Assembly (NCBI GenBank): GCA_963711565.1
Contig: CAVQEQ010000001.1
Coordinates: 1,152,001-1,216,000, forward strand
Reading direction: 5' to 3'
Origin: an uncultured delta proteobacterium
GTDB lineage: Bacteria; Desulfobacterota; Binatia; Binatales; Binataceae
Length of the DNA: 64,000 nt
Position 1 is the first letter of the stretch. The number at the start of each line of letters is the position of its first letter. Below are positions 3,745-59,930 of this stretch, piece by piece. Below the pieces are notes generated by a model. It did no database searches, had not been told where the DNA came from, and was given only the letters and a program-made list of their open reading frames with translations. The position numbers were made by a program, and so were the translations under genes.

Positions 3745-5115
3745 CTAGCTCAGGCCGGCGACCTTCAGCGCTTTTCGCTTGGCGCCTTTCAGGTCGTAAT
3801 ACCTGCGTGTGACGATTCGCTGCGCGTAGAGACCGCCGCCTGCCTGGACGTTGGTGACGGCCTTCCAGCCGCCGTATGCGTCGGCAGTCAGATCGCGGAT
3901 CGCGTGAAACAACCGCGCCCGATATTCGCCGTCGATTCCATTGCTCGTGCCCATATATTTGCGGACGAGCGGGCCGGTCACTTCGTTTTCGAGATCGGCG
4001 ACGCCCGGCGCAGTCAAGATCGAGCCGCCCGAGATGTCGTGCAGGTGCCGCACCATCAGGTTGTAGTTCGCCGCGCCGTGATACTTGCCGGCGTTGGTGT
4101 AGAGTTCGTCGGGAAACGCGCCTTGCTCCGTAATCTGGCAGTTCGCGATTGCGGCCTCGAGCGCCGCGCGAATCAAAGTGGCGTGGATCAGCATCTCGGA
4201 GATCTTCTCCTTGATGTGCCCTTCGCCCGCCAGACCGTTGGCTTCCGCGACGAGTTGCGCGAAGCCGACCAGCTGATCGCCTTCCTCCGCCATCGCTGAA
4301 AGACCGCCAAGTCGCTCCCAGAGCCCGAGCGAATGCGCGAAGACGGCGGCCTGCTGCACCGCACCATCGAGGAAGATGCGTTCATTCGGCACGAACACGT
4401 TGTCGAGGATTACGAATCCTTCGGCCATGTGGACTTTCGCCGAGACCGGGAACGTGCGCGTGTCGGGATGGCGCGGCGCAAAAGTCGTGTCGATAATCTT
4501 GACGCCGGGCGAGTTGACCGGCACCGCGCATCCGATCGCGTAAGCTTCCTCGCCGGGCTTCATCGCTTTGGTCGGGATCACCATCAGGTCATGCGCCATC
4601 GACGCGCCGGTGATGTGCAGCTTGGCGCCGCGGATCACGACGCCGTCGGCGCGCCGCTCAACCACGCGGGTGTAAGCGTCGGGATCGTCCTGCTTGCCGG
4701 GAGGACGCGAGCGATCGCCCTTCGCATCCGTGATGCATTCGACGATGCGCACATCCTTGCGCTGCGCGGCCTGCACGTAGTTGCGGATGCGCTCCGCATA
4801 TTCAGGCAGTGCGTCCGCGATACGCGTGGCCGCAGTGGTCAGCGTCATGATCGACTGGTAAGTCACGTTGGCAACGATGTCGGATTCGAGCAGCAGCGGA
4901 ATCCGGTCGCGCAATTCATTTGCCGAGCGCGGAATTCTCATCAGCGGGCTGACCGCCCCGGGCTCGGGCGAGTAAAATTTGTCGTAGCCCTCCGCTATTC
5001 GCGAGACGCATTCGCCGAGCAGCGGATGATTGACGATGTCGCGCACGCGCTCGCCTTCGAAGTAGGTTTCGCGGTTGTCATCGAGCGACTTCTTGTACTG
5101 CTGTCCGGTCATCAT
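3745..5115 (-). CDS. 4-hydroxyphenylacetate 3-hydroxylase (HpaB)/4-hydroxybutyryl-CoA dehydratase superfamily flavoprotein
   Basis: YFEGERV, ITDAKGDRS, GVVIRGAKLHITGA and VFVPNERIF motifs typical of the HpaB_N/HpaB fold. Confidence 0.85.
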   Translation of the reverse strand: MMTGQQYKKSLDDNRETYFEGERVRDIVNHPLLGECVSRIAEGYDKFYSPEPGAVSPLMRIPRSANELRDRIPLLLESDIVANVTYQSIMTLTTAATRIADALPEYAERIRNYVQAAQRKDVRIVECITDAKGDRSRPPGKQDDPDAYTRVVERRADGVVIRGAKLHITGASMAHDLMVIPTKAMKPGEEAYAIGCAVPVNSPGVKIIDTTFAPRHPDTRTFPVSAKVHMAEGFVILDNVFVPNERIFLDGAVQQAAVFAHSLGLWERLGGLSAMAEEGDQLVGFAQLVAEANGLAGEGHIKEKISEMLIHATLIRAALEAAIANCQITEQGAFPDELYTNAGKYHGAANYNLMVRHLHDISGGSILTAPGVADLENEVTGPLVRKYMGTSNGIDGEYRARLFHAIRDLTADAYGGWKAVTNVQAGGGLYAQRIVTRRYYDLKGAKRKALKVAGLS

Positions 5116-47260: not shown

Positions 47261-50226
47261 TCAGATGCCGCTCGCTTGGGCGGCGGCGAAGTAGCGGTCG
47301 AAGATTGCGCGAATTCTATCGCGGCGCGCGGATAGTTCGGCGAGCATTCGGGCGGCGCCGTCGGCGCCATCGAAGCCCATCCGGCGCGCCAGCGGGCGCA
47401 GGCCAGTCACCGACGTCGGGATGGCCCAGGCCGGCTGATCGCTCTCGATGCGCAGACGATTTTCCAGGCGCGACAAAAACCGGTAGTCGTCTTCGAGAAT
47501 GGACGCGTCGGCCGCAGTCAGCAGATGGAGGCCGTCGAACGCCTCGAGCAAGCCTATCGTGTCGCGCACGCGCAGCTCCGGATGCCGATGGCCGTGAGAC
47601 AGCGCCATCATCTGCACGAGGAACTCAACGTCCACCAAACCGCCGTGACCCTGCTTGATGTTGAGCCGGGTCTTGTCCTCGGCGCCGATTTCCATTTCCA
47701 TTCGATGGCGCATCGCGGCTATTTCGCCGACCTCGGCTGCGGTCAATCCGCGGCCGTACACGAATTCCTGGCGCGCCGCTTCCACCTCGCGGCCAAGTTC
47801 GCGGTCGCCGGTTATCACGCGCGCGCGCACCAGCGCCTGCCGCTCCCATACCGCGGAACTTTGGCGATGATAGTCGCGGAAACCCTCGAGCGACGTGACC
47901 AGCGGGCCCGCGTTGCCCGACGGGCGCAGGCGCAGGTCGAGCTTGTAGGCGTAGCCCTCGCGCGTGCGCGATTCGAGGATCGCGATCAACTTCTGCGTGA
48001 TGCGCGACGCGATTTCGCGGCTGCCGGCGGCGACTTCGGCGCGATCGTCGTAGACAAAGATCAGATCGAGGTCGGAGTTGTACGACATCTCACCTGCGCC
48101 CAGACGGCCCATCGCAATTGCGCACAGACGCATCGTGGGAGGAATCGCGAAGCGCGCCTCGGTCTGAATCCGCGCGAGCGCCATCGCTTCGTCGAGCACC
48201 GTCTCGGCGAGATTCGTCAGCTCGCGCTCGACGCCGAACAGTTCGAGATCGCCGGCCAGGTCGGCGATCGCGATGCGCAAAAATTCCTGGTGCCGAAATG
48301 CGCGCAGCGCATCAAGCTTGCTCTCGAAATCCGGACTCGCCGCAATCAATCCCGCCAACTCGTCGCGCAGTTCGGACGGACTGCGCCGGGTCGCCGCGAG
48401 GTCGGAGCGCACGAGCGTGTCGAGCATGTCGGGATGCCGGATGAAGATAGTCGAGAGGTACGCGCTCGAGGCGAACAGCCGCAGCAGGATGCGCCGCGTC
48501 GCGGGATGCTGTTCGAGCAAGGCGAGGAACGAGGTCCGCGCGCCGATTGCGGCGATGAATTCGGCCAGGTTCATCAGCGCGAGGTCGGGATCGGGCAGCC
48601 CGCCGATCTCGTCGATCAGCATCGGGCCGAGGCGTTCGAGCAGCTCGCGGCGGCGCGGGCTGGTGGGCGCATGCGAGGGCCCGCGTGCGAGCAGCTCGAG
48701 ATGGCGCGCGCTTTCGTCGGCGCGCACAAAGCCAAGCTCGCGCAGGTAGCGGGTCGAGGAATCGGGATCGAGCGCCGAGTTCCACGCCAATTCAGCCGCG
48801 GAGGAAACCCAGCGCGTCGATTCTTCTTCGCCGCCGGCGAGGGTCTCGCGGAATTGCAGCTCGATCAGCGCCCGATGAGATTTCAGTTGCCGGCTGAATT
48901 TCGCGAGCGCTGCCGGCCCCTTGCCAAAACCCATCCGCGCCGCGAGCGCGCGCATCCCGTCTTCATCGGCCGGCAGCACGTGGGTCTGCAGGCGGCGATG
49001 ATCTGCAGCTTGTGCTCGACATCGCGCAGGAACAGGTACGCGTCGGACAGTTCGCGCGCGCGTTTTGACGGCAGGTAGCCGAGCGAGTCGAGCTTTTCGA
49101 GCGCGGCCACGGTCTGCTCGATGCGGAGCCGTGGATCGCGGCCGCCGTAAATCAGAGTGAGCGCCTGCACGATAAATTCGAGCTCGCGGATTCCGCCGCG
49201 GCCGAGCTTGATGTTGCGCTCGATCATCGCGGGCGTTTTCAGCTCGGCCTCGATCTGATGCTTCATCGCGCGCAACTGGCGCAGCGTGTCGAAGTCGAGG
49301 TAGCTGCGGAACACGAAATGATTCAGCTCGGCGCGCAGTTGGTATCCGATTTCGAGGTCGCCCGCGACCGGCCGCGCACGCAGCAGCGCGGCGCGCTCCC
49401 ACGGCTCGCCGAGGTTCTCGTAGTAGTTGATGGCGCCGTCAATCGGCGTCACCAGCGGCGCGGAACGGCCGCCCGGACGAAGCCGCAGATCGATTCGAAA
49501 GCATCGCGCCGACAGAATTTCGGTAAACCATTCGCCGAGACGCGACGCCGCCTCGGAGCTGTCCGGCGAACCCGACGACGCGTGAAGATAAATCAAATCA
49601 ACGTCCGAGCTCAGGTTCAGTTCGCGCGCGCCAAGCTTGCCCATCGCGAGGATGCAGAATCGCCCGATCGCCCGCGCGCGTTCACCCATAAACCGGGTCG
49701 CGAGATCGAGCGCCGTGCGAATGCATTCGTCGGCCAGCTCCGACATCGCCAGCGCAGTCTCGCCGACGCTCAGCCGGTCAAGCAGATCGGCAATCGCCAC
49801 CTGGACCATCATCCGGCGCACGAAACCGCCGAGCGTGGCGGCAGCGGCCTGACGGTCGGGCGCGTCGATCGTGGCGCGCTCCGCGCGCATCGCGGCGACC
49901 AACCCTTCGATAGTCTGGGCGCGCGCCTCGAGAAAAATTTCCGCCCATCGGGGTCCGGCCAGAGACAGCTCGGTTGCGATCAGCTCCGATGAGCCGAGGC
50001 AGAAAATCAGGTCGGCGGCCGCCTGGCGATCGCGCAATACGTCCTTCAGCGCGGCGGCGGAATTCTCGGTGAGCTTGGTCAGAAACGCGAGCGCCAACTG
50101 GTCGTCCGGCGCGCGAGCCTTGACGGTGGCCAGCGCCTGCAGCGCGAGGCGATCGTTGCCGAGCCGGTCCTTGAGCCTTCTACCGAGGACTGCGAGCTGC
50201 GGGGATTGCGCGGCCGTGCGTGGCAT
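47261..50226 (-). CDS. glnE: Glutamine synthetase adenylyltransferase, split by a 1-nt frameshift near 48992
   Basis: Two nucleotidyltransferase domains (MGKLGARELNLSSDVDL and MGRLGAGEMSYNSDLDL, each with DLRLRP and WER). The frames join at IIA[G]LQTH. Confidence 0.92.
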
Positions 50227-50313: not shown

Positions 50314-51399
50314 TCAGGTGTTCTGGGCGACGGTCTTTTTCGAGTGATGGGTCTTCGAGGCGGTATGGTGAGAATGTGACGTGTGCGACTTCTTCACGTG
50401 TTTCGGCGCGAAGTCGGCCTTGATCGGCGTGGGCCGAATCTCAGGCTCGTCCTCGATGCCGGGGAAGTACTTGTCCTCGTCGCGATGCACCTGCAACGCG
50501 GCCAGGAACTCCGCGTAGTAGTTCTTTACCGCGAAGCCGAAATGCGGCCCCTGGTAGTGCTCGACCATCTCCGAATAGTCGCCGCCGTAAATTCCGGCCG
50601 CGCGCGCCACTCCCCCGGTGCCGTAGTTGTACGCAGTAATCGCCAGCGGCCAATCGCCGAGTGTGTCGTAGTTTGAGCGCAGCAGTTTGGCGGCCGCGAT
50701 CGTCTCGCGCTCCGGGATCAGGCGATCGTCGTGATAGCGCGTGATTTTCATGTAGTGCTTGCCGGTGTCGCGCGTGAACTGCCAGATGCCGACCGCGCCC
50801 GCGCTCGAGCGCGAAGCGCCGTGGAAGCCCGATTCGACGTGCGCGAGCGTCGCCAGCTCGGGCGGCAGCCCGGCGCTGCGGAAGATGCGCTCCATCGACG
50901 GCATGTAGTAGCGGCTGCGCAGCAGACCGTCGTGGAATTGCTCGCGCAGTCCTTCCTGCACGCGGAGGTTCTGCGCGGCGGCAGCGAAAGCGCTCGGCGG
51001 CTCGCCCTTGAACATCGCGGCGATTTCGCGCTCTTCGTCGTCGGCCGGCGGCCGCGTCGCGAGGCGATTTAGCATGTCGGAATATTTGGTCTTGAGGTAG
51101 CCGTTCGCCCAGTCGATATCGGAGCGCGTCGGCTGGCCTTCACCGGGAAGATGAAACACGTGGTAGATGCGCGAGACGTTGTCGCGATCGACGACCACGA
51201 AATCCTGCTCCGAGTACTTGGTGAAAACGTCGACCCAGAAATTCACGTTGGGCTCGATCGACTTCGGACGCGGGAATGTGATCGTGGTTTCCGAGAACGC
51301 GTTGGGCGGCGCGGCGAAGGCAAACGCGATCGCGAGCATGAGTGCCGCGACTGTTCTTGCGATTCGGTTTGCCGACAACCTGATCTCGAGCAACGCCAT
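50314..51399 (-). CDS. Lytic transglycosylase (SLT domain, MltD-like, no LysM)
   Basis: HVESGF, SAGAVGIWQF and LAITAYNYG. Basic/His-rich tail. Confidence 0.9.
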   Translation of the reverse strand: MALLEIRLSANRIARTVAALMLAIAFAFAAPPNAFSETTITFPRPKSIEPNVNFWVDVFTKYSEQDFVVVDRDNVSRIYHVFHLPGEGQPTRSDIDWANGYLKTKYSDMLNRLATRPPADDEEREIAAMFKGEPPSAFAAAAQNLRVQEGLREQFHDGLLRSRYYMPSMERIFRSAGLPPELATLAHVESGFHGASRSSAGAVGIWQFTRDTGKHYMKITRYHDDRLIPERETIAAAKLLRSNYDTLGDWPLAITAYNYGTGGVARAAGIYGGDYSEMVEHYQGPHFGFAVKNYYAEFLAALQVHRDEDKYFPGIEDEPEIRPTPIKADFAPKHVKKSHTSHSHHTASKTHHSKKTVAQNT

Positions 51400-51524
51400 C
51401 TCCCCACGATGAACAGGACTTCTGAAGTTAGCCGCGATTGCTCCAGTAGTCAACGAATTTCATGCTGTGGCTAAAGGTGAATTCTGCAATCATCCGTTCG
51501 GCTGTTGAACAGATCCGGCGGGAA

Positions 51525-51629
51525 TTACTTGTTGCGCGCTGCGAATTGGCATTCGTCCGTTGCGCGGATCAGTTCGGCCGCGATGCATTCGACGCGTCGT
51601 AGCCCGCGTCGTCGACGATCGTAAGTCGA
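51525..51629 (-). pseudogene. Displaced, degenerate copy of the pip 3' end
   Basis: Translates as RLTIVDDAGYDASNA/IAAELIRATDE(CQ)FAARNK-stop versus pip KLVIVDNAGHDASNASITGELIRATNEFA. By manual alignment, 51551-51626 matches 57031-57110 at about 62/76 nt with a 4-nt gap. Confidence 0.8.
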
Positions 51630-51635
51630 GTTAGA

Positions 51636-52007
51636 TTACATTCCTGATCTGAGCACGAAAAAAAGATCGACTACACCGAAAATCACGAAGCACACGCCGC
51701 CAACGGCATATCCCCACCTGTAGATTGGTATCTCACTTGACGTATCTTTACGACCGAGCCACTTATTTGGTCGGGCGGCCTGCCGCGCGGCGTCCTCGTT
51801 GCGAACTGCACAGAACAATCCGAACACAATCAGAAACAGGTCCTTGAAAGCTCTAAACTTCACTGGTCCGAGGTAGTGCTGACCCAGAATGAAAATGAGC
51901 AATGTCAGTAGGCCGTATAGCCAATAGCGATGAGCTGGCTGCTCGATGCCGGCAGACGCGTTGAGCAACCTGCCAGAGGAAAATAAGAGCCGCCATTTGC
52001 TTTTCAT
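51636..52007 (-). CDS. Small membrane protein, candidate orphan immunity protein
   Basis: Three hydrophobic segments, GGGGAG RBS, downstream of the RHS toxin/immunity pair, AT-richer. Confidence 0.5.
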   Translation of the reverse strand: MKSKWRLLFSSGRLLNASAGIEQPAHRYWLYGLLTLLIFILGQHYLGPVKFRAFKDLFLIVFGLFCAVRNEDAARQAARPNKWLGRKDTSSEIPIYRWGYAVGGVCFVIFGVVDLFFVLRSGM

Positions 52008-52120
52008 CTTGGTCTCCCCTCTCCCCTATTCCACCGCTTTGTCGGCTCGCTGTTCCAGGTGGCTACAAATTCTTTGGTGGAGCGAATGAGTTCCAGCTAA
52101 ATCAATGGCTTTGATGTCGT

Positions 52121-52597
52121 TCAGGTCGCTTTCGCCTCCCCCCTACGCCTTACAGTTCGAGCGATTGATCTCAGAGCCAGAGCAGAAAACGCAACCGACG
52201 GTAAGATGAAGAGGGCGTTACCAATGCGAAGGGCAAAAAGAAGATTGATTGCTGCCCACAGAATGAGAATCGTGGGAACAACGAAGGCGACTGGGATCAG
52301 GCCGAGTATGAAGACAGCCGCCACGAGATCGAACAGGATAAAACCAATTGAAACGCAGAGAAGCAAAGGTTCGCCCATAGATACGGTTAGGAATGCCGTA
52401 TGTATGACCGGGATGGTGGCAGCGAGTACGCTGCCACCTAGGATCGCGCCTGTGAAGCGCTGGGGAGGAGAATCGCCGCGCCGTCGGCGCGCAATACCAT
52501 AGGCGATCATCGCGTAAGGCTGGGCGGCGATCGCGATCGCAGAGATTAGGTATTGTCCTGAAACAGCCATGAAAATCACCACTTCTCCTAAGGTCAC
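52121..52597 (-). CDS. Membrane protein, candidate cognate immunity protein of the RHS toxin
   Basis: Four to five TM segments. The start overlaps the RHS stop (GTGA). Confidence 0.6.
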   Translation of the reverse strand: MTLGEVVIFMAVSGQYLISAIAIAAQPYAMIAYGIARRRRGDSPPQRFTGAILGGSVLAATIPVIHTAFLTVSMGEPLLLCVSIGFILFDLVAAVFILGLIPVAFVVPTILILWAAINLLFALRIGNALFILPSVAFSALALRSIARTVRRRGEAKAT

Positions 52598-55500
52598 GGC
52601 GAGGCCGTCGGAGGCGCACTGGGATTGACAGACGGCGCTCCTGCTCTCGTTCCAATTGTCGCTACGCCCTGGATCCCAAAATTAGCGGGGTTGTTAATTC
52701 CTTCTGCGATCGCCATAGCACTCTCACCAACCACAACAGTCGCGGTTCCTACTGCATAGGCTGTTAGGCCAAAAGCACTAATCTCTCCGCCTGAGCCTTC
52801 AGCAGTAAGCAGAACTAAATCTCCAACGATGATCCCCGCGTCAGCCAAGGCCATAAACTCCTGAGGCGACAAACCTGATATTGTCGAATTGCTTCCTTGT
52901 TGGCTGCTGTTGTTTCTCGCAGTAGCCGCAGATATAGATAGGCCGTCGTCGCTCGACCCTCCGCCGACCTGCACGTCTGTGAATGTAGGGTCGCCGCCGG
53001 GGGCGCTAATTGTGGCAATATTTCCTCCTAGTAAGCCTATCGCATCCGACCAAGCATCTGACAGTCCACCAAATGATCCAAACGTAAATTCTCCCGTGGG
53101 GTCGGTTCCATTCAATGGCGAATTTCCCACATACGCATACAGCGTCGCGTAATTCCCTCCCGACAGTCCTTGCGGGTCGCGCGCCATGAAGCGGTTCAAT
53201 TCCAGAGAATCATAATATCGCGCCCGGAAATAGTATATTCCGTTGCCGCCGTTGGGGTCGAGTTCACGGCCACCGAATTGGTACGGATTGTCGCTGGCGG
53301 TGCCGGTGCTCGTAGTCTGCCCAAATGGGCCGTAAGTGTATTGCGTCTGTACCACGCCGTTTTGATCGGTCAGCGCGACTACTGAGCCGACCGCATCGGT
53401 CAGATAGTACTGATACACCCCCGAGCTATAGCGCGCGAAACGATCGTCCGGAGCGAGGCCGGTCATCACGTAGGCGGAGCCGACGCTGCTCTCCTTTGCT
53501 ATGTTGCTACCGTCATAGAGGTAATTTGTGACGAGCGGACTGCCTCCGTTGAGACTCAAACTGTTGCTCACTCGGCGACCGAAGGGATCGTAGGTGAGAT
53601 TCTCCGCAAATACTGGACTGCTTAAATTAGCGATCTGTTTCACCTGAGCGCGCCCATTATACTGATATGATACTCCGAGATCGATGGTAACGTCGCCGTC
53701 ATCGTCATTTGTAGTAGCCGTCGAAGACCCGTCCTTGTTGTACGCGAAGCTCTGCGAATTGTTGCCTCCAAAATTGGGAAGAACCAAGCTGGCGAAGCTT
53801 CCGGTAACTTCCGTCCTTCGGCCGTCGGCATCGTAGCTGTAACCGAGATTTCCAATCTGGGTATCATTTCCGTTGGTATACGTAATCGTAGTAAGGTGGG
53901 AATCCTGGTCGTAGCTATAAGCCTCGGTTACAGAATTGGGCAACTGAACCGAACTGCGGCGATTGTCCAAGTCAACTACGATTTGGACGGTGCCGAAATA
54001 TGAATTGTATTCGCTTGTGAGATTGCCGTTGTTGTCGTAGCCATAACTGACACTGGGACCAGCGCCCGACATGGTGGTGCGGCGCTCATCGAGGTCGTAC
54101 TGGTAGGTGATCGTGCCGTTTGAGGCTTGTTGGTCGGTCAGAATCCGATCCTGGCCGTCATAGGTTCTGGTAGTGGTTCCAGCGACCGAGTCCACAACCT
54201 GTGTCATCCGATTGCCGAGATCGTACGTATAGGCATCTTTGATGCCGGTCGTTCCGGTAGTTGAGTTATAGGCCCATTTTTCCGTTACCTTGCGGTTAAT
54301 CTTATCATAAATGAATACGTCGGTGGTTCCGCTGGCATTTGAGAATTGGGTAACGTTGCTGTTGTTGTCGTAGGTAAACTGTGTGCAGTTCGAGTTCGGA
54401 TCGCAGACTTTCGCTAGCCTATTTCTGTCGCCATATTTCCATGTCCAGGAGTGGTTATTTGGATCCACCATACTGGTCATGTTGTACACGTTGTCGTATC
54501 CGTAGGTCGTAATCGACGGGCTGGCGGCCGCGCCGGGGACGCTCCGCTGGGTCACGTGATCCAGGTTATCGTATTGATATACCGTTGTGTTCATCAGCGG
54601 ATCGGTCGTTTGTGTAAGGCGACCTGCGGTGTCGTAGGAATTAGCTGTCAGATTGTCGAGTGGATCCTCGACTTCGGTAAGGTCACCAAAGCTGTCGTAA
54701 GTGTACCAGGTGAAGTTGCCTTCGGCATCTATACTAACATTCAGCGTGCCGTCGTTATTGTAACCCAGAAGATGGGTTGGATTATTGTTGCGATCGATCG
54801 TCAAGCTCAGGTCACAAGGATCACCGATAAAGACCCCGTACTGATAAGAGAGACTGAAACCCATCGGATCAGTGATCTGCGCCACCTGATAGCAATTGCC
54901 AGCGCCGTTGTAGGTGAACGAGGTCAGGGCAGCATTCGAGGTGCCGTAGAGGGATGTAACGGTGAGGGGTTGTCCAATTGTGAAGTCGTACGTGGTATGA
55001 GTGTCACGATTCAACGCGTTGACTGCATCGAGTATGAAATTCGTGTTTGCGTCGCGTGTATAAGTCGTCAATTGCTTTGTGGTTCCAGTAGTGTTGGAGC
55101 CGAGAGTGTCCGACGTTTCATAGCCGGCGGAATTGAATGTAACCGCCCTTTGCGTGCTGTTTCCATCGGTGATCGTCACAGCAGTGATCAGGCCGGAGCT
55201 AAGCGTGTAGGCAAATTTCCATGCGCTGCTGGCTGCATCGGGCATCGTCATCGTCTTTAGAGCGCCCAGCGGACTCCCGCTCGTTACGTAGGCAAGCTTG
55301 AGGGTATTTAGATTCGCATCCTCAATTGACGCCAAGTTGTCTGTTTGGCCTGAAGTTGTGCTGTACTTGTAGGTCGTCACATTGTTGTTAGGATCTTCCA
55401 CGGTCGAAAGTCGGCCTGAGCTGTCGTAACCATATTGAATGGTGCGTCCGGCCTGGTCCTGGATGCTCGTGGGAAGATTGTTAGTGTAGGATACCGTCAG

Positions 55501-56184
55501 GTATCGGCCGTTGGAAGACGTTATCGAGGTGATGTTGCCTGTCTGACCGTTGGTTCGCGATATTGTGATGGAGTTACCGTGTCGATCTTGTATCATCTGC
55601 AAAGGCGCGGCCGTGCCGAATTCATATTCTGTTTCGTCTTTTCGCTCGAGCCACCACGCCTCGCTGCCGGTGTCGTACCAGATATTCGATGCATACCAGA
55701 CCGGATCGTCGTTACTCGTGCAGGAGAATGTGGCATCCGTGTAGTCGGTACAACCGTTTTGGGTGCACGACGAAGTTCGATTGCAGAAGAGATTAGCGCC
55801 GTCGGGCATAACGACCTCGACGTTCTGGAAACCCTGCCCTGCGGCCTGGCTTGGAGAATAAAGATACATTCCATAATCAAAGTTCCAGCCGGGCCCGAAC
55901 ATTCGAGAGGTGCTGTCGTTTTGACGGTACGTTCGGCGCAGCACGATGGGCATCTGCCCCGGCACGGTCAAGTCCGTATGCGAGTAGACGAAGAGTCCTT
56001 GGGCAAGACCGCACGCGGACCAGCCCGCGCCTTCCCACAGCGCTTGCTTGGCACAGGTTGGGTCTTCTGTCGGAGCGGCTGGAGGAGGAGAGGTCCAGTT
56101 GATCTGGGCATGGGCAGTTCCGAAGAACGTGAAAAAAACACAAATGGCGCACACCGTACGAAGTGCAGCGGCCTTGGCTGTCAT
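52594..56184 (-). CDS. RHS/YD-repeat polymorphic toxin with signal peptide
   Basis: Signal peptide ending in AHA-Q, DUF6531-like RTY..FGPGW, many YD repeats, core YYFRARYYD...PLNGTDPTG and a ~165-aa C-terminal tip. Confidence 0.92.
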   Translation of the reverse strand: MTAKAAALRTVCAICVFFTFFGTAHAQINWTSPPPAAPTEDPTCAKQALWEGAGWSACGLAQGLFVYSHTDLTVPGQMPIVLRRTYRQNDSTSRMFGPGWNFDYGMYLYSPSQAAGQGFQNVEVVMPDGANLFCNRTSSCTQNGCTDYTDATFSCTSNDDPVWYASNIWYDTGSEAWWLERKDETEYEFGTAAPLQMIQDRHGNSITISRTNGQTGNITSITSSNGRYLTVSYTNNLPTSIQDQAGRTIQYGYDSSGRLSTVEDPNNNVTTYKYSTTSGQTDNLASIEDANLNTLKLAYVTSGSPLGALKTMTMPDAASSAWKFAYTLSSGLITAVTITDGNSTQRAVTFNSAGYETSDTLGSNTTGTTKQLTTYTRDANTNFILDAVNALNRDTHTTYDFTIGQPLTVTSLYGTSNAALTSFTYNGAGNCYQVAQITDPMGFSLSYQYGVFIGDPCDLSLTIDRNNNPTHLLGYNNDGTLNVSIDAEGNFTWYTYDSFGDLTEVEDPLDNLTANSYDTAGRLTQTTDPLMNTTVYQYDNLDHVTQRSVPGAAASPSITTYGYDNVYNMTSMVDPNNHSWTWKYGDRNRLAKVCDPNSNCTQFTYDNNSNVTQFSNASGTTDVFIYDKINRKVTEKWAYNSTTGTTGIKDAYTYDLGNRMTQVVDSVAGTTTRTYDGQDRILTDQQASNGTITYQYDLDERRTTMSGAGPSVSYGYDNNGNLTSEYNSYFGTVQIVVDLDNRRSSVQLPNSVTEAYSYDQDSHLTTITYTNGNDTQIGNLGYSYDADGRRTEVTGSFASLVLPNFGGNNSQSFAYNKDGSSTATTNDDDGDVTIDLGVSYQYNGRAQVKQIANLSSPVFAENLTYDPFGRRVSNSLSLNGGSPLVTNYLYDGSNIAKESSVGSAYVMTGLAPDDRFARYSSGVYQYYLTDAVGSVVALTDQNGVVQTQYTYGPFGQTTSTGTASDNPYQFGGRELDPNGGNGIYYFRARYYDSLELNRFMARDPQGLSGGNYATLYAYVGNSPLNGTDPTGEFTFGSFGGLSDAWSDAIGLLGGNIATISAPGGDPTFTDVQVGGGSSDDGLSISAATARNNSSQQGSNSTISGLSPQEFMALADAGIIVGDLVLLTAEGSGGEISAFGLTAYAVGTATVVVGESAMAIAEGINNPANFGIQGVATIGTRAGAPSVNPSAPPTASP

Positions 56185-56212
56185 GATTACCCCCTGTGAA
56201 AGGCGACCCCCT

Positions 56213-56797
56213 TTAGTTCTGGATCACTGTGAAGTTGAACGTGCTGGTAGCCAGTCCATTGGGCAACGTCACCTGGATGACTCCGGTGCCGCAGGCCGAC
56301 GGAACGCTGGTCGTGAGTGTCGAAATGGTCGAGGCGGTCACTGTTGCCTGGACTCCGTTGATTGTGACCGTGTTCTGTGACGGTGTGGAACTGAAACCGT
56401 CGCCGTAGATAACTACCGTCGCACCGACGGGGCTTTGTGCAGGAGAAATCGCAAAGAGGGCCGTCGTGTTAGCAAAGGCCAGGGAGACTTGTGTAATATT
56501 CCCGCCCAGGTCGTAGGCATACGACACGCCGTTTGTTCCACTTTGGACGGTATTATTAATGGCTGCCACTATCCGCCCCTGCGGATCATACGCGTAGGTC
56601 ACATCTCCCGCGTATGCTGGTGGGATCAACCAGTTTGACAGCACCAACAGTCCGACGATCACAAGGGTTCCGAGGGCAACGCCATCTGATCGGGGTTCGT
56701 GTGATGGCCGCTGGGTCTCCGGCAGACACGCGGCAAGATCTCCGGAAAACTGTTGCAGTTGGCGTCGTGCGTTTCGACGCGATAAGAGCGGGAACAT
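56213..56797 (-). CDS. Exported YD-repeat + IPT/TIG domain protein
   Basis: Hydrophobic segment ending in AYA, YAYDPQGR and YAYDLGGN repeats, ISP..VGATVVIYGDGFS..NTVTING...FTV IPT domain. GGAGG RBS. Confidence 0.8.
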   Translation of the reverse strand: MFPLLSRRNARRQLQQFSGDLAACLPETQRPSHEPRSDGVALGTLVIVGLLVLSNWLIPPAYAGDVTYAYDPQGRIVAAINNTVQSGTNGVSYAYDLGGNITQVSLAFANTTALFAISPAQSPVGATVVIYGDGFSSTPSQNTVTINGVQATVTASTISTLTTSVPSACGTGVIQVTLPNGLATSTFNFTVIQN

Positions 56798-56998
56798 GGT
56801 GCACCTCCCCTTTCGCAAAGCGAACTCAGCGCAAGAATCTATCCGCCGACAGTGCAGCAGAAGCACTCACAACGGGATACATTCCACAGAGGGCCTAATT
56901 TGCAAAAACGACGATATCAGTCAAGTCTAGCAGTGTACTAAAGTTAACAGTGCGCTTAGCTCATTGTTGCTCGTCTCACTAGCAACCCGAGCAGCGAG

Positions 56999-57979
56999 TC
57001 AGCTGTTCTGCGGTTCGCCGATTTCTGCGAATTCGTTTGTTGCGCGGATTAGTTCGCCGGTGATGCTCGCATTCGATGCGTCGTGGCCGGCGTTATCGAC
57101 TATCACAAGTTTGGCGCGCGGCCATACGCGCTTGAGGTCGTACGCCCATCCGATCGGCGCTTGAAGATCGAAACGTCCGTTCACCATGATGCCGGGGATG
57201 TCGGCAATCGCGGCGGCATCGCGAAGAATGCTCCCGTCCTCGAGCCACGCATAGTGCCGAACGTAATGAGTCACGATGCGCGCGAACGCCATTCCGAAAA
57301 CGGGATCGCGAAACCGCGGCGACAATCCTTGAGCGGGCGGCCAGGCCGGCGTCGCGGACTCCCATGTACACCACGCCAGTGCGGCTTGATTGCGAATCGA
57401 CGCGTCGGGATCGTTGAGCATTCGGCAGTACGCCTCGATGATATCAACGTCCCGCAGCGCGGCCGGCACCGCATCGCGCAGACGCTCCCATTGCTCGGGA
57501 AACAGATCGGACAAGCCGCCGCGAAACAACCAGTCGAACTCTTTGCGGCGCCCGGTCGTGACGCCAAACAGAATAATCTCCCTGACGCGATTCGGGTACC
57601 GCTCCGCATAAGCCAGCGCGAGCGTGCTGCCCCACGAACCGCCGAGTACCAGCCATCGCTCGATGCCGAGATGCTCGCGGATTCGCTCGATGTCGGCGAG
57701 GAGGTTCGCAGTGTTGTTGCTCGCGAGATCCGTGTCAGGCGCGCTCGCATGCGGCGTGCTGCGTCCGCAATTGCGTTGATCGAACAGTACGACGCGATAG
57801 GCGGATGGATCGAACAGCCTGCGATGCCACGGCGTGCATCCCGATCCGGGACCGCCGTGCAGCACCACCGCCGGCTTGCCGCGTGGATTGCCGCACGTCT
57901 CCCAGTACACGAGGTTGCGTTCGCCAACGTCGAGCATGCCGTGTTGATAGGGTTCGATCGCTGGATATAGCTGCGTCAT
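56999..57979 (-). CDS. pip: Proline iminopeptidase
   Basis: LHGGPGSG, DQRNCGRSTP, GGSWGSTL, GRFD and AGH. Confidence 0.93.
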   Translation of the reverse strand: MTQLYPAIEPYQHGMLDVGERNLVYWETCGNPRGKPAVVLHGGPGSGCTPWHRRLFDPSAYRVVLFDQRNCGRSTPHASAPDTDLASNNTANLLADIERIREHLGIERWLVLGGSWGSTLALAYAERYPNRVREIILFGVTTGRRKEFDWLFRGGLSDLFPEQWERLRDAVPAALRDVDIIEAYCRMLNDPDASIRNQAALAWCTWESATPAWPPAQGLSPRFRDPVFGMAFARIVTHYVRHYAWLEDGSILRDAAAIADIPGIMVNGRFDLQAPIGWAYDLKRVWPRAKLVIVDNAGHDASNASITGELIRATNEFAEIGEPQNS

Positions 57980-58045
57980 GCGGGATTGCCAGCTTTCCCT
58001 ACTTTCGCATCAACGAGGCTTTCCGCAAAACGGCGGAGTTGCCTC

Positions 58046-58095
58046 TTGACACGATCCCTGGTTGCTGAGTATATACTCAGTGAGTAGAAGCTCAG
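58046..58095 (+). promoter_or_regulatory. Promoter with a perfect palindromic TetR operator
   Basis: TTGACA at 58046. Perfect palindrome CTGAGTATATACTCAG (58065-58080) over the -10 region, followed by a degenerate copy TGAGTAGAAGCTCAG. Confidence 0.75.
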
Positions 58096-58112
58096 TAGAG
58101 ACGAAGCAATCG

Positions 58113-58700
58113 ATGCAGGCAGCGACGCGGCGGGAACAGAAGGAGGTAACGCGGGACCGGTTGGTCAACGCGGCGATGGCGCTGTTCGCGCGCAAGGGTA
58201 TCGTCAATACGACGACTGCCGATGTCGCCAAGTCGATTCGAATGTCGCATGGCGTCGTGTTCCTGCATTTCCCGACGCGCGACGACCTGGTGATCGCCGT
58301 AATCGACGAGTTCGGGCGCCGTCTGGCCACCGAGTTCCGGCAGGCCTTCGAGCGGGACCTTGGCCTGCGAGCCGTACTGCATGCACATCTGCGGGTGCTC
58401 GCTGAGTTCGAGCCCTTTTACGCGCGGCTGGTGACTGAGGCTCCCATGCTGCCGCCGAAAGTGCGCAGCACTCTGATGATGCTGCACGCGGCTGTGTCCT
58501 ATGAAATCTTCATGGCGCTCGAGCGCGAGCGTAAGGCGGGCCGCGCGCGCAAGATCGAGCGTCCGCTGCTGTTCAACACATGGATAGGTCTCGTGCATCA
58601 CTACCTGGTCAATCGCGACGTGTTCGCCACCGGTGACTCAGTGATCGCCGAGCAGGGCGATGTTCTGGTTAATCATTTTATGACGCTCGTGAAACCATAG
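58113..58700 (+). CDS. TetR/AcrR family regulator
   Basis: TRDRLVNAAMALFARKG...DVAKSIRMSHGVVFLHFPTRDDL. Confidence 0.92.
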   Translation: MQAATRREQKEVTRDRLVNAAMALFARKGIVNTTTADVAKSIRMSHGVVFLHFPTRDDLVIAVIDEFGRRLATEFRQAFERDLGLRAVLHAHLRVLAEFEPFYARLVTEAPMLPPKVRSTLMMLHAAVSYEIFMALERERKAGRARKIERPLLFNTWIGLVHHYLVNRDVFATGDSVIAEQGDVLVNHFMTLVKP

Positions 58701-58713
58701 AAGGAGTAAGACT

Positions 58714-58968
58714 ATGCCTGAAAAATGTCCCGCTTGTGGTTCATGCGGAATGCCGCTGGAGAAGCCCGAAGACTACGCGCTCGGCGACGCGACGCGCCCG
58801 TACTGCCGCTATTGCACCGACGCGCGCGGCGAGTTGCTGTCCTATGAGCAAGTGTTAGAGACCAACGCGCGCTTCTACGTCGAGTCCCAGGGTGTCACTC
58901 CGGCCGCGGCTAGCGCGATGGCGCGCGCGATGCTCGCGGACATGCCCGCGTGGCGCGGGCGGCATTAA
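58714..58968 (+). CDS. Putative zinc-ribbon protein
   Basis: CGSCGMPL...YCRYC...MPAW pattern. AAGGAG RBS. Confidence 0.8.
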   Translation: MPEKCPACGSCGMPLEKPEDYALGDATRPYCRYCTDARGELLSYEQVLETNARFYVESQGVTPAAASAMARAMLADMPAWRGRH

Positions 58969-59017
58969 GAGTTTTGGCAGATCGAAGAACGAAACTTACT
59001 AAGAAGGAGAGAGAGCT

Positions 59018-59380
59018 ATGTTTGATCACATCCAGATTAAGGTGAAGGACCTCAAAGCGAGCAAGCGCTTCTACACGGCTGCGCTGGCGCCGCTGGGATT
59101 CAGCGTGCAGTACGAAGGCGACGGCGTCTTAGGCTTCGGTCCCAAGGGCGCGCCGGCCTTGTGGTTGGCTGAGGGCGAATCGCGTGGGCCCGTGCATATC
59201 GCGTTCTCGGCCAAGGATCGCGCTTCGGTGCGGGCATTCTATGCCGCCGCGCTGCCGGCGGGCGGCAAGGACAACGGTAAGCCGGGACTGAGGCCCGACT
59301 ATGCCGCCAACTACTACGGAGGCTTCGTGAAAGATCCCGACGGCAACAACATCGAGGCCGTTTGCCATCAGGAAGAGTAG
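59018..59380 (+). CDS. VOC/glyoxalase family protein
   Basis: FDHI, HIAF, GGKDNGKPGLRP and DPDGNNIEAVC. Confidence 0.92.
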   Translation: MFDHIQIKVKDLKASKRFYTAALAPLGFSVQYEGDGVLGFGPKGAPALWLAEGESRGPVHIAFSAKDRASVRAFYAAALPAGGKDNGKPGLRPDYAANYYGGFVKDPDGNNIEAVCHQEE

Positions 59381-59389
59381 CTAAGCTAT

Positions 59390-59428
59390 GGGACTGCCTT
59401 GATAGGTCTGTTCGATCAAGGCAGTCCC
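59390..59428. repeat. Perfect 14-bp intergenic hairpin
   Basis: GGGACTGCCTTGAT-11 nt-ATCAAGGCAGTCCC, with no U tract. Confidence 0.7.
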
Positions 59429-59453
59429 TCAGATTGAGTCCCAGGAGCGTCCT

Positions 59454-59930
59454 ATGAATCTCGAAGGTGGATGTTCATGCGGAGCGATCCGCTACAAGCT
59501 GACTAACAGCCCGCTTATCGTTCATGCGTGTCACTGCCGCGATTGCCAGCGCGTAACCGGTAGTGGCTTCGTGATCAATATCTGGATCGAGAAGCGATTC
59601 GTCGAAAGCAGCGGGGCGACGCCGAAATCAGTCGTACTCAAGGGCGGCACCGGCAAGGATCACGAGGCGTTCTTCTGCGAGCGGTGCGGCACCTACGTAT
59701 GGAGTCGCTATCAGGTCGCGCCCGGCGGCGAGGCTTTGTTCGTTCGCGCGGGAACGCTCGACGATGCCGACGCCGTCACGCCCGACGTTCACCTCTTCAC
59801 GAGAAGCAAGCTGCCGTGGGTAAGACTCCCGGAAGGTGCGAGGGCGTTCGATACGGCCTACAAAATCGACGACGTATGGCCGGCCGCGAGCAAGGAGCGC
59901 CTACGCCGGAACGTCGAGGCGCGGAGTTAG
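59454..59930 (+). CDS. GFA (CENP-V/glutathione-dependent formaldehyde-activating) family protein
   Basis: GGCSCG, CHCRDCQR and FCERCGT. Confidence 0.92.
   Translation: MNLEGGCSCGAIRYKLTNSPLIVHACHCRDCQRVTGSGFVINIWIEKRFVESSGATPKSVVLKGGTGKDHEAFFCERCGTYVWSRYQVAPGGEALFVRAGTLDDADAVTPDVHLFTRSKLPWVRLPEGARAFDTAYKIDDVWPAASKERLRRNVEARS

What the first reader, a model, noticed from the sequence alone, without database searches (positions are those of the whole stretch)
51525..57110. RHS toxin cassette flanked by two copies of the pip 3' end, with no integrase
Seen: the last ~30 codons of pip (57031-57110) recur in the same orientation at 51551-51626 (about 62/76 nt identical by manual alignment). The copy has many third-position changes, a 4-nt deletion, and its own stop at 51525. 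Between the copies lie only the IPT gene, the RHS gene and two membrane ORFs, all visibly AT-richer than the flanks. Established: integrative elements that target a gene duplicate or replace its 3' end. Inference: the toxin module arrived by recombination inside pip, with one 3' end coming from a diverged allele. This would make pip an unrecognised hotspot for toxin cassettes mobilised in trans or by homology-facilitated recombination.
Basis: partly seen in the sequence, partly recalled or inferred. Interest (0 to 1): 0.72.

Follow-up and report, generated by a model that had tools for sequence, protein, structure and literature searches.

The report
Toxin cassettes stacked behind peptidase gene
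Behind an ordinary peptidase gene of a soil bacterium, a likely antibacterial toxin and likely immunity genes sit in two blocks, each followed by a leftover copy of the peptidase gene's end, likely scars of the cell's own recombination rather than of a mobile element, and 18 other genes of the genome carry a similar leftover end.

Summary
The repeat is real: 62 of 80 columns, E 8e-11. A third, decayed copy lies between the two membrane genes (E 2e-5), so the interval holds two blocks. The repeated unit is the pip tail plus the end of a convergent gene that G000 has lost. Among 31 pip-to-SLT intervals in 30 genus genomes, 12 are empty, 11 hold only a three-gene block, and 8 carry extra cargo with overlapping junction copies. 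The two membrane genes occur in opposite order in G000 and G020. The dead copy matches an empty-site allele (G059), while the live end keeps a remnant of the other allele type. No integrase was found. pip is not unique: 19 of 3170 genes have a displaced 3' copy downstream, against 4 upstream. Most likely this is host recombination anchored in pip with a short out-of-register second crossover; an excised circle is the main rival. The scar type is published (insertion with long target duplication; Rhs tip displacement), and this scan noted it in other genomes. What is new is toxin and immunity-like modules stacking on a non-toxin gene.

The parts
56999..57979 (-). pip, intact prolyl aminopeptidase gene (326 aa); anchor gene of the array
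   Evidence: TIGR01249 339 bits, cut-off 259.75; single close copy in the genome
56999..57110 (-). Live pip 3' end (junction copy 1). Its last 8 nt before the stop (57002-57009) match the end of the convergent gene that follows pip in relatives; inferred to be the incoming allele
   Evidence: profile positions 2-93, E 6e-17
56213..56866 (-). IPT/TIG-domain protein with an RHS-repeat hit and one hydrophobic segment; homologs precede Rhs genes at other loci. True start probably later than 56866
   Evidence: PF01833, PF05593
52594..56184 (-). Intact Rhs gene, 1196 aa: hydrophobic N-terminus, DUF6531, YD repeats, core ending DPTG at 1028, then a 165-aa Gly/Ala-rich tip of no known family (toxin role inferred)
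52121..52597 (-). mem2, multi-pass membrane ORF directly behind the Rhs stop; inferred cognate immunity gene. Homologs stand without any Rhs in G020 and G055
52033..52102 (-). Decayed middle junction copy (pip tail plus convergent-gene tail); aligns with the copies that follow mem2 in G055 and G020 and begins a few nt after the mem2 stop
   Evidence: nhmmer E 1.8e-5 and pairwise alignments
51636..52007 (-). mem1, small membrane ORF; inferred orphan immunity-like gene. A homolog lies inside an Rhs orphan module in G006
51525..51626 (-). Long dead pip 3' copy (4-nt gap, own TAA), continuous with the DNA upstream of SLT; inferred to be the recipient's old pip end
50314..51453 (-). SLT lytic transglycosylase, conserved downstream boundary (found in 44 of 47 genus genomes)

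Best explanation
The interval holds two blocks behind the intact pip gene, each followed by a leftover copy of pip's end, and they were most likely added one after the other by the cell's own homologous recombination with DNA from related lineages, without an integrase. Shown: three junction copies; empty, block-only and cargo-bearing alleles in relatives; the same two membrane genes in opposite order in G000 and G020. Inferred: donor DNA reading pip - cargo - junction copy pairs first through the roughly 1-kb pip gene, and its downstream junction copy (30-110 nt) makes the second crossover out of register with the recipient's live pip end. The cargo lands directly behind pip and the old end is pushed downstream to decay. 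In G000, mem1 would have entered an empty-type chromosome first and the IPT-Rhs-mem2 block second. Toxin genes then tend to be lost while immunity-like genes stay (inferred). How a cargo is first captured at the junction is not explained.
For: Copies and significance. Of 31 intervals, 12 are empty, 11 block-only and 8 carry cargo. All 23 cargo-free intervals give one junction-profile hit (11 of them built the profile); all 8 cargo intervals give 2-3 hits with overlapping profile positions. Allele mismatch: the 125 nt after the dead copy match empty or remnant alleles best (G059 and G047 0.71, G042 0.69; block-only genomes 0.53 or less), while the live end keeps the convergent-gene remnant. Order swap mem2-mem1 versus mem1-mem2. 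Left edges of displaced copies differ at pip and at a Clp ATPase gene (about -55 in G000, about -136 in G017), unlike a fixed att crossover. Contigs of near-identical strains carry the cassette with 0-4 differences per piece, but the pip-TetR contig of X3 differs at 64 of 1287 nt, which points to a recombination tract at the anchor. Genome-wide polarity: 19 downstream, 4 upstream, 0 inverted (p 0.003); 8 of 9510 mid-gene controls (p 9e-7). No integrase or transposase family in 75 ORFs at the 18 other sites or in 15 cargo ORFs from relatives. ComEC and DprA are present.
Against: No crossover in pip could be mapped: all relatives are about equally distant (80-90%). A single crossover with a circle gives the same final structure. 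One metagenome locus has 1.86 kb of cargo at this junction with no detectable pip-tail copy (L072). Three relatives with other fillers behind the RNase E/G gene show no displaced tail. The G003 second hit is weak (E 0.028), and the live end of G048 lacks the convergent-gene tail. ComEC and DprA are common (10 and 11 of 14 control genomes), so competence is not shown. Variable left edges could come from later deletion. Toxin and immunity functions are untested; in G006 a small ORF may lie between the Rhs tip and the mem1 homolog.
Confidence: 0.5

Rival explanations
1. Modules leave a donor array as small circles by recombination between two junction copies, move to another cell and insert by one crossover in the last 30-110 nt of pip, as Jackson et al. 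proposed for Rhs tips.
For: Gives exactly the observed order, the variable copy length and the mem1/mem2 order swap. Model read in PMC2935791, Discussion part 1. One contig in X9 joins the Rhs core back to a second mem1 copy, and the mem1 region has about double contig depth in X3, which fits amplification between repeats.
Against: It needs a crossover in 30-110 nt at 75-85% identity without a long anchor, which is inefficient by general knowledge of RecA (recalled). No contig joint closing a circle at the junction copies was listed in the 8 runs laid, though contigs drop rare forms.
Confidence: 0.25
2. The copies arose in place as target duplications during repair of a break (insertion with long target duplication in the strict sense), diverged afterwards, and deletions pruned a longer ancestral array.
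For: Young cases elsewhere are 93-99% identical. Deletions are frequent here: a 2026-nt loss inside IPT-Rhs appears in contigs of 3 runs from 3 studies. This may well explain the first capture of a cargo.
Against: The two long G000 copies have different downstream contexts that each match a different allele class in relatives. Deletion alone cannot reverse the order of mem1 and mem2.
Confidence: 0.15
3. A site-specific integrase, acting in trans or since lost, targets the pip 3' junction as attB; the copies are attL and attR of decayed islands.
For: Islands restore the target gene and leave a displaced fragment (PMC4383910, abstract start in the listing). A short junction motif recurs ahead of most cargo. 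The genome has 9 tyrosine-recombinase matches and 1 resolvase match.
Against: The nearest tyrosine recombinase on this contig is about 640 kb away. None of 8 cargo intervals and none of the 18 other sites gave an integrase family. The host genes are unrelated and the left edges vary. The motif is simply the last codons of the convergent gene.
Confidence: 0.1

Closest known systems
Insertion with long target duplication (Furuta, Abe and Kobayashi 2010, PMC2853133; passages and sections 15 and 18 read; Nobusato et al. 2000 seen only as its reference)
   Same: Insert under 20 kb, flanked by direct repeats over 30 bp, no other mobile element, empty site in a relative, repeats spanning a start or stop codon, mostly naturally competent hosts.
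   Different: Described for restriction-modification cargo, with near-identical repeats in the table rows I saw (43-47 of 46-47 bp). Here the copies are 77% identical, match different alleles, and stack; cargo is a toxin, immunity-like genes and enzymes.
Rhs C-terminal displacement (Jackson et al. 2009, PMC2935791; passages and Discussion part 1 of 2 read)
   Same: A new 3' end replaces the old one, which is pushed downstream; fragments of variable length; low-GC tips; no integrase.
   Different: There the shared handle is the Rhs core. Here it is the end of an unrelated peptidase gene, and a whole Rhs gene is the passenger.
Sequential displacement of T6SS effector-immunity modules in Vibrio cholerae (Kirchberger et al. 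2017, PMC5361080; passages read)
   Same: Homology-facilitated illegitimate recombination is proposed; new modules enter upstream and older immunity genes are kept downstream.
   Different: Their anchor is vgrG or an adaptor inside the secretion locus. Here the anchor is a non-toxin gene, non-toxin cargo uses the same site, and each module carries a junction tag.
Integrase-carrying genomic islands with a displaced target fragment (Islander, PMC4383910; only the abstract start in a search listing)
   Same: Target gene restored, displaced fragment at the far end, tandem arrays.
   Different: No integrase in any cargo scanned, no fixed left edge, many unrelated protein-coding hosts.
Recombinase-associated orphan immunity arrays (rAID) of Bacteroidales (recalled; bioRxiv 10.1101/2025.05.03.651265 seen as a listing only)
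   Same: Arrays of immunity-like genes without their toxins.
   Different: No recombinase gene adjoins this array, and the repeats are pieces of the host gene.

Membership tests
Insertion with long target duplication | Direct repeats longer than 30 bp flank the insert | tested here: met
   80-column repeat, E 8e-11; middle copy about 70 nt
Insertion with long target duplication | Insert under 20 kb with no other mobile element | tested here: met
   5.4 kb; no integrase or transposase family
Insertion with long target duplication | Empty site with one copy of the repeat in a relative | tested here: met
   12 of 31 intervals are empty, each with one profile hit; these are other species, not conspecific strains
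Insertion with long target duplication | Restriction-modification cargo (a criterion of Furuta's screen) | tested here: not met
   No such family in the pip cargo; one HNH gene at another site
Insertion with long target duplication | Both repeats derive from one recipient target | tested here: inconclusive
   Downstream contexts point to two alleles; no conspecific pair was available
Rhs C-terminal displacement array | Displaced fragments are Rhs core pieces with tips | tested here: not met
   In the window the repeats are pip ends and no orphan core follows the Rhs gene. G003 has an orphan core at this site, and strain contigs hint at one
Rhs polymorphic toxin | YD repeats and core ending in a DPxG motif before a variable tip | tested here: met
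   PF05593, DUF6531, TIGR01643, TIGR03696; DPTG at 1028
Rhs polymorphic toxin | Tip is toxic and the downstream gene neutralises it | not testable with these tools
   The tip has no family; one homolog at 31% identity among 7998 scored candidates
Integrase-mediated genomic island | Integrase gene inside the element | tested here: not met
   large serine recombinases and transposases were not searched genome-wide
Integrase-mediated genomic island | Fixed crossover site | tested here: inconclusive
   Left edges differ between events, but later erosion is possible
Homology-facilitated illegitimate recombination | Long RecA-dependent anchor on one side and a short join on the other, in a transformable cell | tested here: inconclusive
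   Anchor length could not be mapped; divergent tract at pip in strain contigs; ComEC and DprA present

The most novel reading that the evidence does not exclude
Rhs-style end displacement is not tied to toxin genes here. In this genus many ordinary gene ends serve as recombination handles, cargo travels tagged with a piece of the gene end it was captured at, and modules are added and reshuffled in arrays with no recombinase. That would be a general, overlooked route of gene gain, with the pip site acting as an integrase-free store of toxins and orphan immunity genes.
Probability: 0.3. Interest if true: 0.75.

Novelty: new variant of a known kind. Interest (0 to 1): 0.48.

Why it matters
Many gene-gain hotspots lack a mobile element, and how genes are added there without deleting residents is usually inferred, not seen. 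This site gives an ordered record: allele-tagged scars, empty alleles, two modules in swapped order, and variants among near-identical strains. It shows that toxin-locus-style displacement can run on a non-toxin gene. It also gives a simple signature (a diverged gene end stranded downstream) that can be counted in any genome. The scar type itself is published, so the gain is in scope and testability rather than a new class of element.

Tried and rejected
Segment-wise identity to 35 relative loci could not place a crossover in pip, because all relatives are about equally distant; no tree was built. Of 80 metagenome loci, 21 reached the convergent gene or SLT: 14 empty, 6 block-type, 1 with cargo but no pip-tail copy; the other 59 were too short or in another context. 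The empty-site test at the trigger-factor gene was inconclusive. The 3.5-kb inserts between TetR and pip in 5 relatives show no flanking duplication. The protein-atlas query for the Rhs tip did not complete, so the tip's fold is open; no structure was predicted. No RNA holder was listed. No contig joint from pip straight to the window's SLT-upstream DNA was listed in 8 runs; contigs show presence, not absence. X2 may be the source sample and is not counted as support. A sequence look-up of pip among earlier findings gave nothing. Seven literature searches gave no paper on this site or on genome-wide counts of displaced gene ends; subscription papers are mostly not covered and no supplements were read. 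PMC11375855 and PMC2884548 (passages) gave background only. Rejected: chance repeat, pip paralogue, a shared att motif, and a single cassette.

Full report
Observation. The last codons of pip (57031-57110) recur at 51551-51626 on the same strand: 62 identities in 80 columns with a 4-nt gap, E 8e-11 against the whole 4.84-Mb genome, and a local score of 67 against 16.9 +/- 3.1 for 634 background windows. Seven of the 14 mismatches are at third codon positions. pip is intact (TIGR01249 above cut-off) and has no close paralogue. Between the copies lie an IPT/TIG gene, an intact 1196-aa Rhs gene with DUF6531, YD repeats and a 165-aa Gly/Ala-rich tip after DPTG, and two membrane ORFs, mem2 and mem1. 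This DNA is 53.5% GC against 63-64% in the flanks.

Relatives. pip was found in 33 of 47 genus genomes and SLT in 44 of 47. In 30 genomes both lie on one fetched stretch, giving 31 intervals because G004 has two; G006, G024 and G045 could not be classed. Twelve intervals are empty. Eleven hold only a 1.85-kb convergent block: a cupredoxin, a haem-binding protein and a gene with no Pfam or NCBIfam family, whose last codons abut the pip stop. Eight carry extra cargo directly behind pip. The cargo differs: an orphan Rhs core with tip and membrane ORFs (G003), mem1 and mem2 (G020), mem2 (G055), one membrane ORF (G049), serine hydrolases (G043, G051), and a DUF1326/copper-chaperone pair followed by a tip-like ORF and membrane ORFs (G048). 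The three-gene block also lies next to SLT in pip-less relatives, so it looks ancestral and the empty alleles look like deletions (inference).

The repeated unit. A profile of the pip-tail/convergent-gene junction, built from the 11 block-only genomes, hits the G000 genome three times below E 0.04, all at this locus: the live end, the dead copy and a middle copy at 52033-52102 (E 1.8e-5). All 23 cargo-free intervals give one hit. All 8 cargo intervals give two or three with overlapping profile positions; the weakest is G003 at E 0.028. The interval is therefore pip - IPT - Rhs - mem2 - copy - mem1 - copy - SLT. The copy after mem2 aligns with the copies after mem2 in G055 and G020, so that join is inherited. 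G020 has mem1 before mem2 and G000 the reverse. Deletion from one ancestral array cannot give both orders, so the modules likely moved separately.

Which copy is old. The dead copy and the DNA after it align along 200 nt with the empty site of G059. The 125 nt after the copy match G059 and G047 at 0.71 and block-only genomes at 0.53 or less. The live end finishes with 8 nt of the convergent gene's tail, a gene G000 does not have at this site. I read the dead copy as the recipient's end and the live one as a donor's. A crossover point in pip could not be mapped.

Near-identical strains (assembled contigs only, so these are hints). Pieces of the cassette occur with 0-4 differences in soil runs. 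A 2026-nt deletion removing most of IPT and the Rhs N-terminal part appears in 3 of 4 runs from 3 studies, with 255, 30 and 22 letters on the short side. One X3 contig joins pip's end to the start of mem2 (30 letters on the short side), the arrangement seen in G055. The same alternative sequence lies ahead of mem1 in X1, X8, X9 and X10, and one X9 contig joins the Rhs core back to a second mem1 copy. The pip-TetR contig of X3 differs at 64 of 1287 nt while its SLT and cassette contigs differ at 0-3, apart from one variant of the Rhs core end; this fits allele exchange at the anchor.

Not only pip. With a crude gene caller, 19 of 3170 genes have a non-genic copy of their last 120 nt lying 0.2-15 kb downstream on the same strand, 4 upstream and none inverted; mid-gene controls give 8 of 9510 downstream (p 0.003 and 9e-7). 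Queries with more than 8 hits were dropped as dispersed repeats. For 5' ends the count is 8 upstream against 2 downstream (p 0.11). Hosts include RNase E/G, trigger factor, a Clp ATPase, peptidyl-tRNA hydrolase, an acetyl-CoA carboxylase subunit and an LptF/G permease. Cargo includes a PemK toxin, GrpB, carbonic anhydrase and an HNH protein. None of 75 ORFs scanned (75 of 79 listed; four short ones left out) hit an integrase or transposase family. In five relatives, empty sites were seen at RNase E/G (1 of 5), a sigma-54 regulator (3 of 5) and the Clp ATPase (cargo missing in 3 of 5); G017 has its own displaced Clp end with another left edge; trigger factor was inconclusive. Against generality: three relatives with other fillers behind RNase E/G show no displaced tail, and metagenome locus L072 has cargo at the pip junction without a pip-tail copy. 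No baseline from other bacteria was computed.

Mechanism. I favour host recombination with a long anchor in pip and a short out-of-register crossover at the junction copy (0.5). The circle model of Jackson et al. gives the same product (0.25). Duplication in place with later pruning (0.15) may explain first capture but not the allele mismatch or the order swap. An integrase in trans (0.1) is disfavoured: the nearest tyrosine recombinase on the contig is about 640 kb away, the one resolvase is on another contig, and the edges vary. ComEC and DprA are present but common. Toxin and immunity roles are inferred from position. mem2 follows the Rhs stop directly. A mem1 homolog lies 245 nt behind an orphan Rhs tip in G006, possibly with a small ORF between, in a module flanked by a 77-nt, 99% direct repeat.

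What is known. Furuta et al. (PMC2853133; passages, sections 15 and 18) describe insertion with long target duplication for restriction-modification genes: repeats over 30 bp, no other mobile element, often at start or stop codons, mostly in competent species. Jackson et al. (PMC2935791; passages, Discussion part 1) and Kirchberger et al. (PMC5361080; passages) describe displacement arrays inside toxin loci. This site meets the first three structural criteria of the former and works like the latter, but its handle is a peptidase gene end. Seven searches found no paper on this site or on a genome-wide count. Earlier unchecked notes of this scan report the same pattern in other genomes, and one led me to the Furuta paper.

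Verdict. Real, correctly seen and more complex than reported; a new variant of a known kind; interest 0.48.

Noticed in passing
G000:C1:814000-835500 (L027, L028) and G000:C4:790000-793000 (L029): Two further Rhs loci with arrays of core fragments, tips and small downstream genes. In L027 two tip-plus-partner units appear twice and the array changes strand; a repeat or assembly effect was not excluded.
   Followed up: partly
L173:7243-8466 (G006): A mem1 homolog lacking its first residues is fused in frame to the 3' end of a glycosyltransferase-like ORF, a possible chimera made by the same process.
   Followed up: partly
L172:8583-11081 (G006) and L001 (G003): Orphan Rhs core-tip modules are flanked by their own direct repeats (77 nt at 99%; 60 nt at 88%) that are not Rhs core sequence.
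   Followed up: partly
window 56999-59930: pip, TetR, a zinc-ribbon gene, a glyoxalase and a GFA gene form a block that is whole, eroded or missing in different relatives (remnants in G002, G014, G042, G047). pip was not found at E 1e-30 in the 16 genomes of other families searched.
   Followed up: partly
L002, L004, L005, L007, L033, between TetR and pip: Five relatives carry about 3.5 kb of extra DNA between TetR and pip with no flanking duplication; content not annotated.
   Followed up: no
G004:C10:43820-46061 and 373749-375996: G004 holds two diverged copies of the aroA-pip-SLT region on one contig; duplication or mixed assembly.
   Followed up: no
L166, about 3830-4380 (G000:C4 near 1017800-1018400): A segment of about 550 nt between dispersed 75-nt repeats is inverted in G000 relative to G003, G049 and G059.
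   Followed up: no
L003:6191-7840 (G001) and many relatives: A conserved three-gene block next to SLT (EfeO-like cupredoxin, haem-binding protein, and a 268-aa protein with no Pfam or NCBIfam family) may be an undescribed metal-uptake unit; G000 lacks it at this site.
   Followed up: partly
window 47261-50226: The glnE-like gene is read as two overlapping ORFs in different frames (47261-49402 and 48883-50226), which suggests a frameshift or sequencing error.
   Followed up: no
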